The notes under the pieces are model-generated. The model searched no databases. It saw only the letters and a list, made by a program, of their open reading frames with translations, and was not told where the DNA came from. Shown one piece after another: positions 8,689-63,700 of a DNA stretch of 64,000 nt. A program made the translations under genes and the position numbers. Numbering within the stretch: position 1 is the stretch's first letter; each line of letters opens with the position of its first letter. Source of the DNA: a virus; IMG/VR virus record IMGVR_UViG_3300036853_000417, positions 18,151 to 82,150 of that record; one strand, given 5' to 3'.

Positions 8689-9526
8689 GCCAAGAGTCAT
8701 CACTCGACCAAGACGTGAGCTTGATCTCAAGTCATATCGTTTTCGGAGAGCAGAGATACGTGACTATACAGAATTGTTGACCTCTTCCACTATTTTGCGA
8801 GATGAAGCTAGTGGAAGAGTGCGTGTTGTTTATCTCGTATTATCTGATGATTGTAATGAGATTGTCCAGTCACTGCGCTCTATTCAATTTGAAATAGATG
8901 AGCGTGCATCAGGAATGCTTTCTCAATCTCGGATATTTGGATATCGTCCAAGAATTACCATTCGAGATGATTTTTGTACGACTGCTGCTCTTGCTCGCGA
9001 GCATCCTTTTGCCTACAAACTTATTTCTTCCTATGCAGCAAAGGTTTCAGATTACTACCATCAGTTCAATCCTGAGTTGTTTATAGAACATCAACGGATA
9101 GTAGGTCGTGTGCTTCCTGAATGGAGGCTGGAGGGATCGGTTTTTACCTCTGGAATTATTAATAAGAATAATCCTTTGCCTTATCACTTTGATCAAGGAA
9201 ATTTTCAGGATGTTTGGAGTAATATGCTTGTTTTCAAGCACCAAATAGGAGAGGGGTATCTTTCTGTTCCTGAATATGACATTGGTTTTGAGGTAGCACA
9301 TAATTCTCTTCTGATGTTTGATGGGCAAAACATTCTACACGGAGTAACACCTATTTATTTAGAAGGACCTGAAGCTTTTCGTTATTCCATCGTTTACTAT
9401 AGCTTAAAATCAATGTGGAATTGTCTGTCTCCCGATGAAGAGGTGAGGCGTATTCAACGTTTGCGTACCTCTCGTGAAGAAAAAAGATTTTTCAAATATC
9501 TTCCACCAAAGGAGATGCCAGAATGA
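8672..9526 (+). CDS. TET/JBP-like 2OG-Fe(II) 5-methylpyrimidine dioxygenase
   Basis: FTSGIINKN, HxD (YHFDQGN), distal His (HGVTPI), RYSIVYY; ATG 8672 after GAGGAGG. Confidence 0.85.
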   Translation: MPLQSEPRVITRPRRELDLKSYRFRRAEIRDYTELLTSSTILRDEASGRVRVVYLVLSDDCNEIVQSLRSIQFEIDERASGMLSQSRIFGYRPRITIRDDFCTTAALAREHPFAYKLISSYAAKVSDYYHQFNPELFIEHQRIVGRVLPEWRLEGSVFTSGIINKNNPLPYHFDQGNFQDVWSNMLVFKHQIGEGYLSVPEYDIGFEVAHNSLLMFDGQNILHGVTPIYLEGPEAFRYSIVYYSLKSMWNCLSPDEEVRRIQRLRTSREEKRFFKYLPPKEMPE

Positions 9527-10419
9527 TCATGTCTGCAAAGGTATTTGAGGATTTTGCATTCTTCTGTCAGCATCAACTTGTGAGTAAAGATGTTGATCCC
9601 GTCTATCCATTGTTGCGGTTGCTGGTATCTCCTCTCTTGGAGGAGCAGGCACTCTGGCACACACTCCTCTATGTTGGATATTACTCTCTCCCTTCATCTC
9701 GTGCCGCTTTTGATCGTGTTCCCAGTGTTGATGCACTTCCCTTGTCCCTGTCACGTTTACCAACTGGGGTAGAGCGAAGAGGATTTCGTGGAGGAACCAT
9801 TACCAGGCATGTTGATAGCTTGCTTTATTTGCACGAGACATTTGGAAGTTTGAAAGCATGGCTCTGTCAGGAATTTGGGAGAGACATACGACAGAACTGG
9901 ATTCATTTACAAAATACCCTGCAGCAGGCATGGGGGAATGGACGGTGGGCTGCTTATAAGACCGGAGAAATTTTACAGAAAGTCCATGATTTTCCAGTGC
10001 AGCCAACAGATATGGGACATGAGTTTTCAACGGGTCCTCGTCATGGTCTTGCCCTTTTCTATGGGAATGCTTGGGGGAATGCTCCTGATGCTATTCAAAC
10101 ACTGAATGCTCAGGGAGAAAATCTCCTACAGTGTCTTGCAGAACAAGGGATACACATGGGCATAGAGCAGTTAGAGACAATGCTCTGTGATTTTTATTCC
10201 CTGGTAGGGGGACGCTATTATGTTGGTCATGATATTGATATGCTACAGACACAATTACTTGCCTCCTCTCTTTCATCAGATATCCTTGAACCTATCTGGC
10301 AAGCAAGAAAAAGAGCATTACCACACGCATATCTGGGAGAAATACAAGGCTGGACAGGAATTGATAGGGAGCGGAAAAAAGTGTATCAAAGAACAGGAAG
10401 GGTGATTATTCGTGGCTAA
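9523..10419 (+). CDS. aGPT-Pplase2-like amino acid:DNA transferase (helix-hairpin-helix fold)
   Basis: DVDPVY, GNGRWAAYK, GPRHGL, ETMLCDF and YYVGHDID motifs. Confidence 0.75.
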   Translation: MIMSAKVFEDFAFFCQHQLVSKDVDPVYPLLRLLVSPLLEEQALWHTLLYVGYYSLPSSRAAFDRVPSVDALPLSLSRLPTGVERRGFRGGTITRHVDSLLYLHETFGSLKAWLCQEFGRDIRQNWIHLQNTLQQAWGNGRWAAYKTGEILQKVHDFPVQPTDMGHEFSTGPRHGLALFYGNAWGNAPDAIQTLNAQGENLLQCLAEQGIHMGIEQLETMLCDFYSLVGGRYYVGHDIDMLQTQLLASSLSSDILEPIWQARKRALPHAYLGEIQGWTGIDRERKKVYQRTGRVIIRG

Positions 10420-16589: not shown

Positions 16590-17023
16590 TGACAGAAAGA
16601 ACAGCAGAGGGTCAGATTATCAACGGAGATGCTTTAATTGTGTTGAAAAATCTACCTACACACTCGGTAGATTCCATTGTTACTGATCCACCTGGTGGGA
16701 TTTTCTTTATGGGCAAAGAATGGGATAGCGATAAGGGTGGGCGAGATCAATGGATCGCATGGTTAGCGTCAATTATGCAAGAGGCTCGCCGTGTGATCAA
16801 ACCTGGGGGTCATGCTTTGGTATGGTCACTTCCTCGTACTGCACATTGGACTGCAATAGCGTTAGAAGATGCAGGATGGGAAATAAGGGATAGTGTGCAT
16901 CACATCTTCGGAAGCGGTATGCCCAAAAGTCATAATATAAGTAAAGCGGTAGAATCTGAGATAGTAAAACAACTGCAACTAAAAGGGATAGTATTTACTA
17001 GTTGGGAGGATGAACATGAATGA
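16586..17023 (+). CDS. N6/N4 DNA methyltransferase, N-terminal half (split gene)
   Basis: GDAL, VTDPPG, RVIKPGG, EDAGWEIRD, GSGMPKSHNISKA. Confidence 0.85.
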   Translation: MMTERTAEGQIINGDALIVLKNLPTHSVDSIVTDPPGGIFFMGKEWDSDKGGRDQWIAWLASIMQEARRVIKPGGHALVWSLPRTAHWTAIALEDAGWEIRDSVHHIFGSGMPKSHNISKAVESEIVKQLQLKGIVFTSWEDEHE

Positions 17024-17783
17024 GTTTTTCAAATCTATCTATGTATTGCGCTTCTTTGCCCCATATAGAGCGATGACAAGATACACACAATGTTATTCCA
17101 TTAGTAATATCAAGAATACGTTCAGGACATTCTCTGACTGGATGTATGTGATGTGCTTGTATGTCTCCATTGCTAGGCTTATTGCACATTTGGCAGGTAT
17201 AATTATCACGTTCATATACAGATTTGCGCCAGTCTTTGTACTCAAATTGACCATGAATAATAGCTCGATATTTAGTAATTCCTCCATTTTTCCAATTAGG
17301 ATGAAGATGTTGACGATATTTTCCTTTAAGGCTGCTAGAAATCTTTTTACGGGTAGTATCAGCAAGCTTGGCCCCGTATCGTGGGGAATTCTCTCCTATA
17401 CGGCTTTTTGCATAATCACTCAATTCTTGTTTACGTTGAGCAGACAAGGGAATACCCTTGTTCCAACCAGCACATTTTTCAGTTTTATCTCGAATTGGAA
17501 TTTCGTATTCATGCAACAATTTACTAATACTACTTTCAGACGAACCCAGTTGACGCCATATAGTATCTATACTCAATTCCTGATTTACATACAGTTCATG
17601 CAATTGTTCTTTACTAGATGCCACAGGACGTTGTGCAAGATGCCTGTCACGAATGGGAATATCATATTTTCTCAACCAATTACTAATAGTTTGGCTAGAA
17701 TTGACTCCTACAAGTGCAGCAATTTCAACTGTGGTCAAATTTTCAGTAACATACAAATTATACAAAGTGTCTTTGTCCAGCAT
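16998..17783 (-). CDS. homing endonuclease (HTH + NUMOD3-like + HNH) inserted in reverse orientation
   Basis: TRKKISSSLKGK, ERDNYTCQMC...AHHI...NGITLCVSCH; own AAAGGAG RBS. Confidence 0.85.
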   Translation of the reverse strand: MLDKDTLYNLYVTENLTTVEIAALVGVNSSQTISNWLRKYDIPIRDRHLAQRPVASSKEQLHELYVNQELSIDTIWRQLGSSESSISKLLHEYEIPIRDKTEKCAGWNKGIPLSAQRKQELSDYAKSRIGENSPRYGAKLADTTRKKISSSLKGKYRQHLHPNWKNGGITKYRAIIHGQFEYKDWRKSVYERDNYTCQMCNKPSNGDIQAHHIHPVRECPERILDITNGITLCVSCHRSIWGKEAQYIDRFEKLIHVHPPN

Positions 17784-27546: not shown

Positions 27547-27693
27547 TTTCCACCTGCATTCTCCTGGGAAATGTTACTCAAAATTGATTATCACCTTCAT
27601 TATACCTCTTAAAGACTTTCCTTGGAGGGTATTCTAAAGATAGAACATATTCTCATATTATCGGGGGAGCAGCGATGAAAAATATCTGCTTTT

Positions 27694-27767
27694 GGATCTT
27701 TAGCTCAGAAGGTGAGAGCGTAGTCCTGATAAGGCTGAGGTCCCTGGTTCGAGTCCAGGAAGATCCA
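27694..27767 (+). tRNA. tRNA-Ile (GAU)
   Basis: GGATCTT/AAGATCC acceptor stem, TAGCTCAG D arm, CTGATAA anticodon loop, GGTTCGAGTCC T arm; no encoded CCA. Confidence 0.9.
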
Positions 27768-27777
27768 TTATTCATAC

Positions 27778-27820
27778 AAAAAGGAACCAGAGCATCAAAT
27801 AATCTCTCTGGTTCCTTTTT
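27778..27820. terminator. bidirectional intrinsic terminator
   Basis: AAAAAGGAACCAGAG...CTCTGGTTCCTTTTT. Confidence 0.75.
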
Positions 27821-27849
27821 GACTTTCAAGCCCAATAGGGGTTTTTCAT

Positions 27850-28238
27850 CGTGTCGGGTCAGGAGACCCCCGTCATTTATGCGGGAGAGGAATGACCCTT
27901 CCTTTCTTTGGTGGATAGGGTGGGGATTCCCACCTACGCTCAAGTCCCCTTGCGGGGAGCCGTTTTTGTCGGAACGGTTAAACCGTTGGCGGATTGCCGC
28001 CCACCGTGTCCAGGCACGGGTGATATAACCCTTCGTGGTTGCAATACAGGCTTAGCTATGAATGTATCCATAACATCGCTTTCGGCGTGAGTAGAAGAGG
28101 TCCGAGTTAGGGTGGCGCTCGGACATTCTTGTAGCCCGTACCGCTGCTGACTGTTCACAAGAACAAAGCCCACTAGTCACAAACTTACGTTGCGCTGGCC
28201 GTTTCGCAAGCCCCGTCATTTCTGGCGGGGTTCATGAC
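27850..28238 (-). mobile_element. non-autonomous IS200/IS605-family element carrying an IscB-type omegaRNA (HEARO-like) scaffold, no iscB/tnpA ORF
   Basis: begins GTCATGAACCCCGCCAGAAATGACGGGGCTTG; internal TGACTAG, GTCCGAG..CCCT..CTCGGAC and CGAAGGG; ends AAAGGAGG..TTCCTCTCCCGCATAAATGACGGGGGTCTCCTGAC; both ends carry the same AAATGACGGGG hairpin; followed by ATGAA. Confidence 0.75.
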
Positions 28239-28263
28239 ATCACTTGGCTTGATGTATGCAAAA

Positions 28264-28300
28264 GTTTCAACCCTGTTCAGGTTGCCATCGAGAAGGAAAT
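28264..28300 (-). repeat. solitary CRISPR-repeat-like sequence
   Basis: 37 nt ATTTCCTTCTCGATGGCAACCTGAACAGGGTTGAAAC with a 3' hairpin and GAAAC end; second repeat-like end CCCCTATTGGGCTTGAAAG at 27823-27841. Confidence 0.4.
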
Positions 28301-28348
28301 CGCCATTGAATTCCTTCTCGGCGGAGTTGTTTGACCGGTGATTAACTC

Positions 28349-28377
28349 ATCATACCATACAACTCAACAACACGCAA
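28349..28377 (-). promoter_or_regulatory. promoter driving the non-coding repeat/omegaRNA unit
   Basis: TTGCGT-17-TATGAT with TG extension; no credible ORF downstream. Confidence 0.55.
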
Positions 28378-33951: not shown

Positions 33952-35181
33952 CTAATAGTTGATGCCACGACGATCAAAGGGCGTAAGGTCTTCAAGTCTA
34001 CGATTTGACTTTCTGGCATTACATTCACGATGTGTAGGTTTGATATTGTCCTCTGTGTGGGTTCCCTGTGGATCACCTGCACGAGGGACGAGAGGCACAA
34101 TATGATCGAATGTCAAAGTATGGTGAAGCAAAATAGGTTTATCGCACAGGTAACAATGTCTTCCATCGCGTTTAAGGATATGAGTAAAGTCTACCTTATC
34201 TACGATGACTGCCCCCTTTTTACGAGCAAGACGTTGAAGTTGATATCCTTGTGTGCGAAGTCTATTGTTGTGCCTCCATACTCGATGTTTTGCCCTAATC
34301 GAAGCCATATGCAGAGCATCATGACGACGACTATCATTGTATATACGCCTCTCTTCAAGCCGTTCATGATGATATATGCCCACACACTTTTTGCAGATCG
34401 CATAATGTCCATCACGTCGGTTCCTGTCCAAAGAAAACTCACTCAAGAACTTTTCAAGAGAACATTGTGGGCATACCTTGGCTCGTACCTTACGCGGAGG
34501 CGGAATCATCTGTCGCTGTTTGAGGATGCGAGTCTGACGCTTTACAGCATTGCGTGCTCTTCTTCTTGCTCTGTGCTCATCAGTATTGTGGCGAGCACGA
34601 TCATAGGTGCGAAGGCGATCACTGTTAGCGGATCTATAGGCATTATTATATGTCCTTTTCTCGAATTTCTTTTCAGGAGAGGCATGATAGCGCTCACTCT
34701 TACATTGCTTGCAACGACCTGCATAGCCATCCTTTTGAGCAATGTCATGCATAAATGCACTATGAGGTTTTTCTATCAGGCATGTGTTACACACCTTGTG
34801 TCCTTCAAGAGTGGCCTTTGGAAGAACAGGTGTCTTGCGAATACGTCGCAATTGATTGCGCTCTCTGTCCCTTGCATGTTCACAGGTAATACAAGTGGCT
34901 GTAGGCTTGCCATTCCGAAAATGAAAGTCAATATATGGCTTCTCCTGCTTACAAGCATTGCAAAATCGGTAGCCCTCTTTAGTCGATTTCAATTGAGATT
35001 TATTACGTGGGTTATACCGAGGATTCGGCAGCACATAGGGGCGTCTACGTGCTCGATCTCGTTCCCGTGTGCAATCAATACAGTAACTAGAGGGTCTATC
35101 CTTATGTATCTTGAATTGACCAAAAGGTTTTTCAATCTCGCACGATGCGCAAACTTTGAAAGTAGGATACAATGGGTCCAT
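33952..35181 (-). CDS. freestanding HNH homing endonuclease with four CxxC...CxxC repeats
   Basis: repeated CxxCxxEKPxxxF modules; C-terminal CYLC...FDHIVP...NIKPTHRECN. Confidence 0.85.
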   Translation of the reverse strand: MDPLYPTFKVCASCEIEKPFGQFKIHKDRPSSYCIDCTRERDRARRRPYVLPNPRYNPRNKSQLKSTKEGYRFCNACKQEKPYIDFHFRNGKPTATCITCEHARDRERNQLRRIRKTPVLPKATLEGHKVCNTCLIEKPHSAFMHDIAQKDGYAGRCKQCKSERYHASPEKKFEKRTYNNAYRSANSDRLRTYDRARHNTDEHRARRRARNAVKRQTRILKQRQMIPPPRKVRAKVCPQCSLEKFLSEFSLDRNRRDGHYAICKKCVGIYHHERLEERRIYNDSRRHDALHMASIRAKHRVWRHNNRLRTQGYQLQRLARKKGAVIVDKVDFTHILKRDGRHCYLCDKPILLHHTLTFDHIVPLVPRAGDPQGTHTEDNIKPTHRECNARKSNRRLEDLTPFDRRGINY

Positions 35182-35314
35182 AGCTATGAGTCCTCAAATT
35201 CTAGCTTAGGTACAAAGAGTGTCGTAAGCACTCTTTGTACCTCAAAAAATCCACCCTCATTATACCACAAAACCGCTCCACAAGCCAGTTTATGTCTTTT
35301 TTGCGTATCAAAAA

Positions 35315-35388
35315 TAGCCCCAATTGGAGTTGAACCAATGCCTCCCATTTATAAGATAGGTGCACTTAACCACATGTGCTTTGGGGCT
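35315..35388 (-). tRNA. tRNA-Ile (UAU)
   Basis: AGCCCCA/TGGGGCT acceptor, GCAC/GTGC D stem, CCTAT-CTTATAA-ATGGG anticodon arm, ATTGG-TTCAACT-CCAAT T arm; atypical A8. Confidence 0.8.
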
Positions 35389-35522
35389 ATGCGTTCACTA
35401 TTGCTTCCTGCCAAAAAAACCGTGTCGTCGGTAGTAAGAAATCGCCAATCGAACACGTGTCACAAAATCAGCAAAAAATGTTCTCATGCATTCAATCTCC
35501 TTTCAGAAAGGAGTATAGCACA

Positions 35523-63093: not shown

Positions 63094-63700
63094 GTTCCAT
63101 CTTCATGCTGGGAGTGGAGCAAGTTGCAACTGGGAAGATGATCCTGTGTTCCGTTTCATCTCCATGTAGGAGCAGGGCAGGTTGCAACGACATGTGATAC
63201 ATTTCACCGCGTATGTAACTGAAAGTTTCACTGCCATGCTAGTTGTGAGACATGCTGCAACTTTGAGCTATCTCTAAGATCGTCCAACGTTCAGCAAGTT
63301 TCACTACCATTCTGGTTGTGGGACACGTTGCAACTGGTCCTTGGTGAACATCGCTACGAGACTATTGGTTTCACTGCCATTCTGGTTGTGGGACATGTTG
63401 CAACTGCTGAAAATGCAAACCGAGCACTGCTTTATACATAATGTTTCACTGCCATTCTGGTTGTGAGGCACGTTGCAACCTATGATGGATTGGTTGGTCG
63501 TTGCACGGTTTCAAAGTTTCACTGCCATTCTGGTTGTGGGGCATGTTGCAACCTATGATGGATTGGTTGGTCGTTGCACGGTTTCAAAGTTTCACTGCCA
63601 TTCTGGTTGTGGGGCATGTTGCAACCTGAGGATAGCACTGCGATTACACTTGGATTGCGTGCCGTTTCACTGCCATGCTGGTTGTGGGACACGTTGCAAC
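63094..63700 (-). CRISPR. CRISPR array: 7 near-consensus 37-nt repeats (63225-63700) plus 2 divergent distal repeats; consensus GTTGCAACRTGYCCCACAACCAGAATGGCAGTGAAAC
   Basis: repeats at 63094, 63153, 63225, 63298, 63368, 63443, 63516, 63589, 63664; spacers 22-38 nt; degeneration on the left, leader on the right. Confidence 0.95.

What the first reader, a model, noticed from the sequence alone, without database searches (positions are those of the whole stretch)
27850..28263. Phage-borne stand-alone IscB omegaRNA with a defined 25-nt guide and ATGAA TAM
Seen: a 389-bp element with paired IS200/IS605 subterminal hairpins and an omegaRNA/HEARO-like scaffold but no iscB ORF, with ATGAA immediately beyond its far end. 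Established: IscB guides derive from the flank 5' of the scaffold; the TAM is the opposite flank (ATGA/ATGAA are known IscB TAMs); trans-acting omegaRNAs occur in Ktedonobacter. Inference: transcribed from the 28349-28377 promoter, possibly 5'-trimmed at the CRISPR-like repeat, it could load host IscB in trans. It would then cut element-free sister phages (homing or inter-phage competition), forming a repeat-guide-omegaRNA chimera.
Basis: partly seen in the sequence, partly recalled or inferred. Interest (0 to 1): 0.82.

Follow-up and report, generated by a model that had tools for sequence, protein, structure and literature searches.

The report
Nuclease-less IsrB guide-RNA mini-transposon in phage
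A soil phage carries a 389-base jumping element that has kept only the guide-RNA scaffold of an IsrB/IscB (Cas9-ancestor) transposon and lost the nuclease gene; this is a clean example of an already described kind of element, not a new system.

Summary
Window 27850-28238 (minus strand) is a 389-nt ORF-less element. It has two similar subterminal hairpins and a full-length but sub-threshold HEARO/omegaRNA match (56.7 bits, E 1e-10). ATGAA lies just beyond its far end.

Fifty-seven soil-metagenome loci and one unrelated phage contig carry relatives. Their flanks become unrelated exactly at 28238 and 27850, and ATGA follows the far end in nearly all copies. The RNA fold shows compensatory changes in 38 of 77 pairs.

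The nearest full-length relative has an omegaRNA 80.6% identical to this one. It encodes a 333-aa RuvC-only protein that matches solved IsrB (E 3.6e-27), not IscB. The expected partner is therefore the nickase IsrB, whose known TAM (NTGA) fits ATGA.

The phage record has no IsrB/IscB and no TnpA, and the host is unknown. Use of the RNA in trans and any homing are inferred, not shown.

The "25-nt guide", the "CRISPR-like repeat" and the promoter are not supported.

This is a PATE-like omegaRNA-only IS200/IS605 element, a known kind (Meers 2023; Altae-Tran 2021). Earlier follow-up reports of this scan describe nuclease-less omegaRNA elements of this kind on other DNA: two phages and an archaeon. 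I score it as a new member of a known kind, with low to moderate interest.

The parts
27850..28238 (-). Whole 389-nt ORF-less mini-element. In TnpA terms, LE is at 27850 and RE at 28238. The omegaRNA is read on the minus strand from 28238.
   Evidence: The boundaries come from the alignment of 17 related ORF-less copies with unrelated flanks. It is a single copy in the record.
28020..28238 (-). omegaRNA core (HEARO, RF02033).
   Evidence: 56.7 bits, E 1.1e-10, model 1-211/211. The core is 80.6% identical over 248 nt to the omegaRNA in front of the IsrB gene of L065, and it is sister to it in the tree with 99/97 support.
28211..28230 (-). RE subterminal hairpin, which is also the first stem-loop of the omegaRNA (CCCC...GGGG). 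It is followed by TTCATGAC up to the element end.
   Evidence: columns 9-30; stem invariant, loop variable.
27946..28022 (-). 3' tail of the RNA: four small hairpins shared by the ORF-less copies. In full-length elements the first two correspond to the hairpins just before the isrB start codon.
   Evidence: Compensatory changes in A2 columns 282-374. Comparison with full-length copies.
27867..27885 (+). LE subterminal hairpin.
   Evidence: Direct repeat D2 with the RE hairpin. Covarying stem at A2 columns 483-501. The LE is homologous to the 3' end of the L065 element.
27845..27849 (+). Target/TAM motif TTCAT (ATGAA on the RNA strand). The conserved core is TCAT/ATGA at 27846-27849.
   Evidence: ATGA follows the element end in nearly all related copies, and the fifth base varies. 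ISGst5 TAM is TTCAT (PMC10055086). The IsrB TAM is NTGA, and ATGA is active (PMC9581776).
28239..28258 (-). Predicted guide: about 20 nt of phage flank directly 5' of the scaffold.
   Evidence: The position follows from the family alignment, where flanks are unrelated upstream of GTCA. The 20-nt length is by analogy with DtIsrB (PMC9581776). The guide has no second match in the window at up to 3 mismatches.
28349..28377 (-). Unverified.
   Evidence: Not listed by the promoter scan. Unique in the window. The alternative is read-through from ORF 28797-28384.
27777..27821 (.). 16-bp hairpin with A-run and T-run flanks. It is a likely bidirectional terminator between tRNA-Ile and the element.
   Evidence: I1, 100% complementary arms.
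27693..27768 (+). tRNA-Ile(GAT), the neighbour of the element. It is not part of it.

Best explanation
It is a non-autonomous, PATE-like member of the IS200/IS605 superfamily. It derives from an IsrB-encoding OMEGA element and has kept both transposon ends and the whole omegaRNA gene, but it has lost isrB.

Shown:
- the anatomy and the boundaries;
- membership in a diverse soil family of such ORF-less copies, which sit beside full-length IsrB copies;
- the conserved ATGA next to the far end;
- selection on the RNA fold.

Inferred, step 1 (insertion). A host Y1 TnpA, acting in trans on the two subterminal hairpins, inserted the element as single-stranded DNA just 3' of TTCAT in replicating phage DNA. 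The site lies between the tRNA-Ile terminator and a minus-strand gene.

Inferred, step 2 (transcription). Transcription on the minus strand, by read-through from ORF 28797-28384 or from a weak promoter near 28377-28349, would give an RNA of about 20 nt of phage flank (28258-28239) fused to a scaffold of about 290 nt.

Inferred, step 3 (action). If the infected cell makes a compatible IsrB, the complex would recognise the element-free version of this phage site, which is the guide match followed by ATGA. It would nick the non-target strand and so favour copying of the element into empty genomes (retention or homing). If no compatible IsrB is present, the element is a silent passenger.
For: - HEARO match over the full model, E 1e-10. 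Bona fide IsrB-linked relatives score equally low.
- 57 metagenome loci and phage contig L011 carry relatives.
- 15 loci are full-length, with an ORF about 250 nt after the RNA start. 22 loci, plus 4 more reassigned by eye, are ORF-less like this one.
- Full-length ORFs: the three scanned have Pfam RRXRR only. All start RIPVV..MP(C). L065 matches IsrB 8DMB at E 3.6e-27.
- The window's RNA core is 80.6% identical to that of L065 and is its sister in the tree (99/97).
- The last 80 nt or so are homologous to the L065 element end, which is also followed by ATGA.
- Flanks are unrelated beyond GTCA and beyond ATGA in 17 copies. ORF-less copies sit beside gatB, an integrase gene and a homocitrate-synthase-like gene.
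- 38 of 77 consensus pairs show compensatory changes, and the window copy keeps 69 of 77.
- Literature: PATEs that carry only an omegaRNA, and the TTCAT TAM of ISGst5 (PMC10055086). Standalone omegaRNAs work in trans (PMC10691335, citing Altae-Tran 2021). IsrB is a nickase with an NTGA TAM (PMC9581776).
Against: - The Rfam score is below the curated threshold (56.7 against 83).
- No IsrB/IscB (RRXRR) and no Y1 TnpA are found in the 82-kb record, although CheckV rates the record 68% complete.
- The host is unknown.
- The promoter is not detected by the consensus scan.
- ORF-less copies are not monophyletic on the RNA core (AU p 0.0046) although they share the same tail. The simple history of one deletion followed by spread is therefore incomplete.
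Confidence: 0.72

Rival explanations
1. The element is an inert relic. It jumped into the phage once and is now a silent passenger. Its RNA is either not made or never meets a compatible nuclease, so it has no effect on the phage or on itself.
For: No IsrB/IscB or TnpA in the phage record. No convincing promoter. It is a single copy.
Against: The fold is almost fully intact (69 of 77 family pairs, and the misses lie mostly in the variable end hairpins). Both ends and the ATGA motif are intact. ORF-less copies as a class keep the fold through compensatory changes, which argues that they are used somewhere.
Confidence: 0.35
2. One reading: it is an IscB-type omegaRNA that loads a host IscB and makes double-strand cuts in element-free sister phages.
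For: The HEARO model was built on IscB-associated RNAs and matches here. The TTCAT/ATGAA TAM equals that of the IscB element ISGst5 (PMC10055086).
Against: All 15 full-length relatives recovered have 333-381-aa IsrB-type ORFs, the three scanned show no HNH domain, and the closest one matches solved IsrB far better than IscB. IsrB only nicks (PMC9581776).
Confidence: 0.08
3. It is a repeat-guide-omegaRNA chimera. The element sits inside a one-spacer CRISPR-like unit. A Cas6-type cut at ...GTTGAAAC (28264) would define a 25-nt guide and link the phage's CRISPR arrays to the omegaRNA.
For: The phage does carry two kinds of CRISPR array. The 8 nt at 28264-28271 read GTTGAAAC on the RNA strand, which resembles the ATTGAAAC end of one array's repeat.
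Against: 28264-28300 matches the two array repeats at only 19/37 and 14/37 positions. Apart from the shared GTTTCA this is 13/31, about 2 sd above chance. No second copy exists in the genome at up to 8 mismatches in 28 nt. Rfam CRISPR-repeat hits nearby have E values of 2-6. Related copies have unrelated sequence at this position.
Confidence: 0.03
4. It is a phage-exapted weapon. The phage keeps the element because the RNA, with a host nuclease, damages competing element-free phages, or because it regulates neighbouring genes.
For: A second, unrelated phage contig (L011) carries an ORF-less copy of the same family in its replication module. Atlas clusters of IsrB-like proteins are often labelled as viral.
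Against: No sister phages were found, so conservation of the insertion cannot be tested. The guide is simply the insertion flank, as in every copy. The same family is common beside ordinary bacterial genes.
Confidence: 0.07

Closest known systems
PATE-like, protein-less derivatives of ISGst elements, and the IscB element ISGst5 of Geobacillus stearothermophilus (Meers et al. 2023, PMC10055086)
   Same: IS200/IS605-type ends with subterminal hairpins. The omegaRNA abuts one end and its guide is taken from the flank. There is no protein gene. The TAM TTCAT at the other end is identical to this copy's. The elements are presumed to be mobilised and used in trans.
   Different: The partner family here is IsrB, not IscB. 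The organism is a soil phage of unknown host. There is no sequence similarity beyond the shared RNA family. Nothing has been tested experimentally.
Standalone omegaRNAs of OMEGA systems (Altae-Tran et al. 2021, as summarised in PMC10691335)
   Same: Mobilised omegaRNA loci without an effector or a transposase, shown there to work in trans with compatible effectors.
   Different: Those lay in the same genome as effector-containing loci. Here no effector is in the record, and the cell that would supply it is unknown.
IsrB omegaRNA (DtIsrB complex, PDB 8DMB; Hirano et al. 2022, PMC9581776)
   Same: A long scaffold of about 260-290 nt. The RNA ends in hairpins at the ribosome-binding site of isrB. 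The TAM is NTGA, 3' of the target, and ATGA is active. The closest full-length relative's protein matches 8DMB at E 3.6e-27.
   Different: This copy lacks isrB and carries extra tail hairpins in place of the ORF. Its RNA sequence is only distantly related.
K2IsrB, an IsrB from a viral metagenome contig (PMC9581776), and omegaRNA loci on IMG/VR contigs L004-L015
   Same: They show that OMEGA elements occur on phage DNA.
   Different: In one search several of these loci have a sizeable ORF soon after the RNA, but those ORFs were not checked. This copy and the one on L011 have none.

Membership tests
IS200/IS605 superfamily, non-autonomous (PATE-like) element | Subterminal imperfect palindromes at both ends, and no terminal inverted repeats | tested here: met
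   Hairpins at 27867-27885 and 28211-28230 share CCCCGTCATTT. Both stems covary across the family.
IS200/IS605 superfamily, non-autonomous (PATE-like) element | Insertion next to a conserved 4-5-nt target motif at one end, without target-site duplication | tested here: met
   TCAT (ATGA on the RNA strand) abuts the LE in the window and in nearly all aligned copies. The other flank is unrelated and not duplicated.
IS200/IS605 superfamily, non-autonomous (PATE-like) element | Copies in different genomic contexts, as evidence of mobility | tested here: met
   57 metagenome loci and 1 phage contig. Flanks are unrelated, and the neighbours include gatB, an integrase gene and an HMGL-like gene.
IS200/IS605 superfamily, non-autonomous (PATE-like) element | No protein-coding gene inside | tested here: met
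   Only 55-117-aa frames overlap the element, and the three scanned have no Pfam hit.
IS200/IS605 superfamily, non-autonomous (PATE-like) element | A Y1 TnpA that recognises these ends | not testable with these tools
   There is none in the phage record (PF01797), and the host is unknown.
HEARO / omegaRNA (Rfam RF02033) | Score at or above the curated gathering threshold (83 bits) | tested here: not met
   56.7 bits, E 1.1e-10, full model. IsrB-linked relatives also score 53-66 bits, so the model under-scores this subfamily.
HEARO / omegaRNA (Rfam RF02033) | Conserved secondary structure supported by covariation | tested here: met
   77 consensus pairs, 38 with compensatory changes. The window copy keeps 69 of 77.
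HEARO / omegaRNA (Rfam RF02033) | Location directly upstream of an iscB or isrB ORF | tested here: not met
   There is no ORF here. This is what makes the element stand-alone. In 15 relatives the ORF starts about 250 nt after the RNA start.
IsrB-type OMEGA system | An effector of about 350 aa with PLMP and RuvC domains and no HNH domain | tested here: inconclusive
   Met in the relatives: the three ORFs scanned have RRXRR only, all 15 start RIPVV..MP, and L065 matches 8DMB at E 3.6e-27. No such gene is in the phage record, and the host is unknown.
IsrB-type OMEGA system | TAM NTGA immediately 3' of the guide-matching target | tested here: met
   Precise excision would place ATGA directly after the flank that supplies the guide. 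ATGA is active for DtIsrB (PMC9581776).
IsrB-type OMEGA system | RNA-guided nicking of target DNA | not testable with these tools
   This needs biochemistry.
   No second copy at up to 8 mismatches in 28 nt. The stretch matches the two array repeats at 19/37 and 14/37 positions.

The most novel reading that the evidence does not exclude
ORF-less omegaRNA elements of this IsrB subfamily may be an independently evolving lineage of guide-RNA-only transposons. They carry their own conserved tail module, and they outnumber nuclease-bearing copies among the loci recovered. When they land in a phage, as here and on L011, they would turn a host IsrB into a nick-based drive that copies the element into element-free co-infecting phages. 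In that case a phage-borne guide RNA would parasitise a host nuclease.
Probability: 0.1. Interest if true: 0.6.

Novelty: new member of a known kind. Interest (0 to 1): 0.3.

Why it matters
The element adds a well-delimited phage example to the known class of nuclease-less omegaRNA mini-transposons. It also corrects the expected partner from IscB to the nickase IsrB.

The family data gathered here could be useful to people studying OMEGA systems:
- ORF-less copies are at least as common as full-length ones among the recovered soil loci.
- The RNA fold is kept through compensatory changes.
- ATGA is conserved next to the far end.
- The ORF-less copies share a tail.

These data suggest that guide-only copies are maintained rather than decaying. 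They do not reveal a new mechanism.

Tried and rejected
- **Exact hairpin patterns.** Searches in IMG/VR and in GTDB genomes hit only unrelated terminator hairpins (L002, L003).
- **First metagenome pattern.** It was too strict and found nothing.
- **GenBank phages.** Only the tRNA and a short unrelated stretch match. The portal protein finds only a 25%-identical Thermus phage.
- **Sister phages and empty sites.** The flank pattern and both neighbouring proteins found nothing in IMG/VR.
- **Laid contigs.**
  - Other soil runs, including a metatranscriptome, hold many 80-95%-similar relatives of 27861-28240 without the phage flanks. This shows that the family is widespread. It does not show that this locus is transcribed.
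  - No contig joined across the element, and no second close copy of the RNA core appeared in the probable source run. Contigs cannot show absence, so neither result counts as evidence.
  - One 248-nt contig of the source run matches 27845-27885 (5 differences) with a different flank. That is only a hint of another copy next to TTCAT.
- **HNH proteins.** The 409-aa HNH protein at 33952-35181 and the 261-aa one at 16998-17783 were checked as possible IscB. They have only C-terminal HNH domains and no RRXRR/RuvC domain, so I read them as probable homing-type endonucleases.
- **Protein atlas.** It gave only a mix of labels, mostly viral and cyanobacterial, for IsrB-like clusters. No host could be inferred.
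- **LE/TAM regex survey.** It is circular because it requires ATGA. It was used only for element lengths and for the variable fifth base.

Full report
**What is in the sequence**

The window is part of an 82,150-bp IMG/VR virus record (window = record 18151-82150). It encodes a portal protein, a major capsid protein and a tape measure protein, so "phage-borne" is correct.

Between tRNA-Ile(GAT) with its hairpin terminator (27693-27768 and 27777-27821) and a minus-strand ORF (28797-28384) lies a stretch that is richer in G+C than its surroundings (about 53% against about 42%).

The default Rfam scan reports only the two tRNAs. At E-value thresholds, the HEARO/omegaRNA model RF02033 matches 28238..28020 on the minus strand over its whole length. 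The score is 56.7 bits, with E 1.1e-10 locally and 7.8e-09 for the whole window. It is the only such hit in the window.

Two similar hairpins that share CCCCGTCATTT lie near the two ends. The whole stretch folds better than all 100 shuffles (z = -3.3). Only 55-117-aa frames overlap it, and the three scanned have no Pfam match. TTCAT (ATGAA on the RNA strand) sits at 27845-27849.

**Relatives and boundaries**

Exact-pattern searches for the hairpins found only unrelated terminators. A looser pattern built from the omegaRNA 5' part recovered 12 omegaRNA loci on IMG/VR contigs. A subfamily pattern recovered 57 soil-metagenome loci.

These loci fall into two classes:
- 15 have an ORF of 333-381 aa that starts about 250 nt after the RNA start.
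- 22, plus 4 more reassigned by eye, have no such ORF. They end after about 350-490 nt with a second hairpin, like the window copy.

One of the ORF-less copies lies in the replication module of an unrelated 62.8-kb phage contig (L011).

In an alignment of the ORF-less copies, similarity begins exactly at GTCA (window 28238) and ends just before ATGA (window 27850|27849). The sequence on both sides is unrelated from copy to copy. ORF-less copies lie next to ordinary genes such as gatB, an integrase gene and a homocitrate-synthase-like gene.

This is the signature of a mobile IS200/IS605-type element that inserts beside TCAT without duplicating its target. The fifth base of the motif varies (A, G, T or C), so the conserved motif is ATGA rather than ATGAA.

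**The RNA is under selection**

RNAalifold on 14 ORF-less copies predicts 77 pairs, and 38 of them show compensatory double changes. They cover the HEARO core, four small hairpins 3' of it (window 28022-27946) and the far-end hairpin.

The window copy keeps 69 of the 77 pairs. Six of its 8 misses lie in the two end hairpins, whose loops differ between copies.

The low Rfam score is a trait of the subfamily, not a sign of decay. RNAs directly in front of intact nuclease genes score 53-66 bits. Meers et al. also note that RF02033 lacks downstream structural elements (PMC10055086).

**Which nuclease family**

Three full-length ORFs were scanned, and each has Pfam RRXRR only, with no HNH domain. 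All 15 start with the PLMP-type N-terminus RIPVV..MP(C).

The ORF of L065 matches the solved IsrB (8DMB) at E 3.6e-27, against about 1e-4 for IscB structures. L065 is also the closest relative of the window's RNA core, at 80.6% identity over 248 nt, and the two are sister taxa with 99/97 support. Its far end is homologous to window 27931-27854 and is likewise followed by ATGA.

The element therefore descends from IsrB elements. IsrB is a nickase with a guide of about 20 nt, a 262-nt scaffold and an NTGA TAM, for which ATGA is active (PMC9581776). This fits the conserved ATGA.

In TnpA terms the motif is TTCAT beside the left end, identical to the TAM of ISGst5. The omegaRNA abuts the right end, as Meers et al. 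describe (PMC10055086).

**How it most likely works**

Shown:
- the anatomy and the boundaries;
- family membership;
- the conserved target motif;
- the covarying fold;
- IsrB ancestry.

Inferred:
- A host Y1 TnpA inserted the element into replicating phage DNA.
- Minus-strand transcription fuses about 20 nt of phage flank (28258-28239) to the scaffold.
- With a compatible IsrB supplied by the cell, the complex would recognise the element-free site (flank match followed by ATGA) and nick it. This would favour retention or homing.

This is the role proposed for OMEGA elements and for their PATE derivatives (PMC10055086). Standalone omegaRNAs have been shown to act in trans (PMC10691335, citing Altae-Tran 2021).

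Against any claim of activity here:
- The record has no RRXRR protein and no Y1 TnpA, although it is rated only 68% complete.
- The host is unknown.
- No sister phage or empty site was found.
- The proposed promoter fails the consensus scan.

The "defined 25-nt guide" depends on reading 28264-28300 as a CRISPR-like repeat.

The phage does carry real arrays. One kind lies in both terminal inverted repeats (window 63225-63700) and another lies at record 8712-9712. However, the stretch matches their repeats at only 19/37 and 14/37 positions. It has no second copy, and the corresponding position in related elements is unrelated flank.

I treat the repeat-guide-omegaRNA chimera as unsupported.

**Open point**

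On the RNA core, the ORF-less copies are not one clade (AU p = 0.0046). Yet they share the same tail hairpins, which full-length copies lack beyond the start codon. Recombination between copies, or repeated similar deletions, could explain this. I did not resolve it.

**Verdict**

This is a clean, well-delimited, nuclease-less omegaRNA mini-transposon of IsrB ancestry in a soil phage. The kind is described (Altae-Tran 2021; Meers 2023). Earlier follow-up reports of this scan describe the same kind on other DNA, namely two phages and an archaeon. I did not check those reports. I rate it a new member of a known kind, with interest 0.3.

Noticed in passing
window 63094-63700, and record G000 308-998 (outside the window): The two ends of the virus record are inverted repeats, identical over at least the outermost 120 nt. 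Just inside each end lies a CRISPR array with a 37-nt repeat (GTTTCACTGCCATTCTGG...GTTGCAAC), with 8-9 repeats each. The repeat spacing differs between the two ends. No cas gene was seen. This may be a real phage feature or an assembly effect.
   Followed up: partly
record G000 8712-9712 (about 8.4-9.4 kb before the window start): A second CRISPR array of 14 identical 37-nt repeats (GTTTCAATCGCTCAG...ATTGCCAC), with two duplicated spacers. One spacer itself looks like a CRISPR repeat.
   Followed up: partly
window 27945-27968 (+ strand): On the strand opposite to the omegaRNA, the tail hairpin CCCCTTGCGGGG is followed by GCCGTTTTT, which looks like a terminator. Both the hairpin and the AAAACGGC motif are conserved in the ORF-less family. 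This could block antisense transcription into the RNA gene.
   Followed up: no
L016-L072 (soil metagenome loci): ORF-less omegaRNA copies are at least as numerous as IsrB-bearing copies in this subfamily (at least 22 against 15). They are polyphyletic on the RNA core (AU p 0.0046) yet share one tail module.
   Followed up: partly
L011:6671-7077 (+): A second, unrelated phage contig (IMG/VR, 62.8 kb) carries an ORF-less copy of the same family. It lies between a PAPS-reductase-like gene and a dCTP-deaminase gene in its replication module, and it is flanked by ATGAT.
   Followed up: partly
window 33952-35181 (-) and 16998-17783 (-): Two free-standing endonuclease genes with C-terminal HNH domains, of 409 and 261 aa. 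The first lies next to the minus-strand tRNA-Ile(TAT) at 35314-35389. They have no RuvC/RRXRR domain, so they are not IscB.
   Followed up: partly
window 28289-28320: A 13-bp hairpin (CGAGAAGGAAATC / GAATTCCTTCTCG) lies between the stop of ORF 28797-28384 and the guide flank, and no U-tract follows it. Its role is unknown. It could attenuate read-through into the omegaRNA.
   Followed up: no
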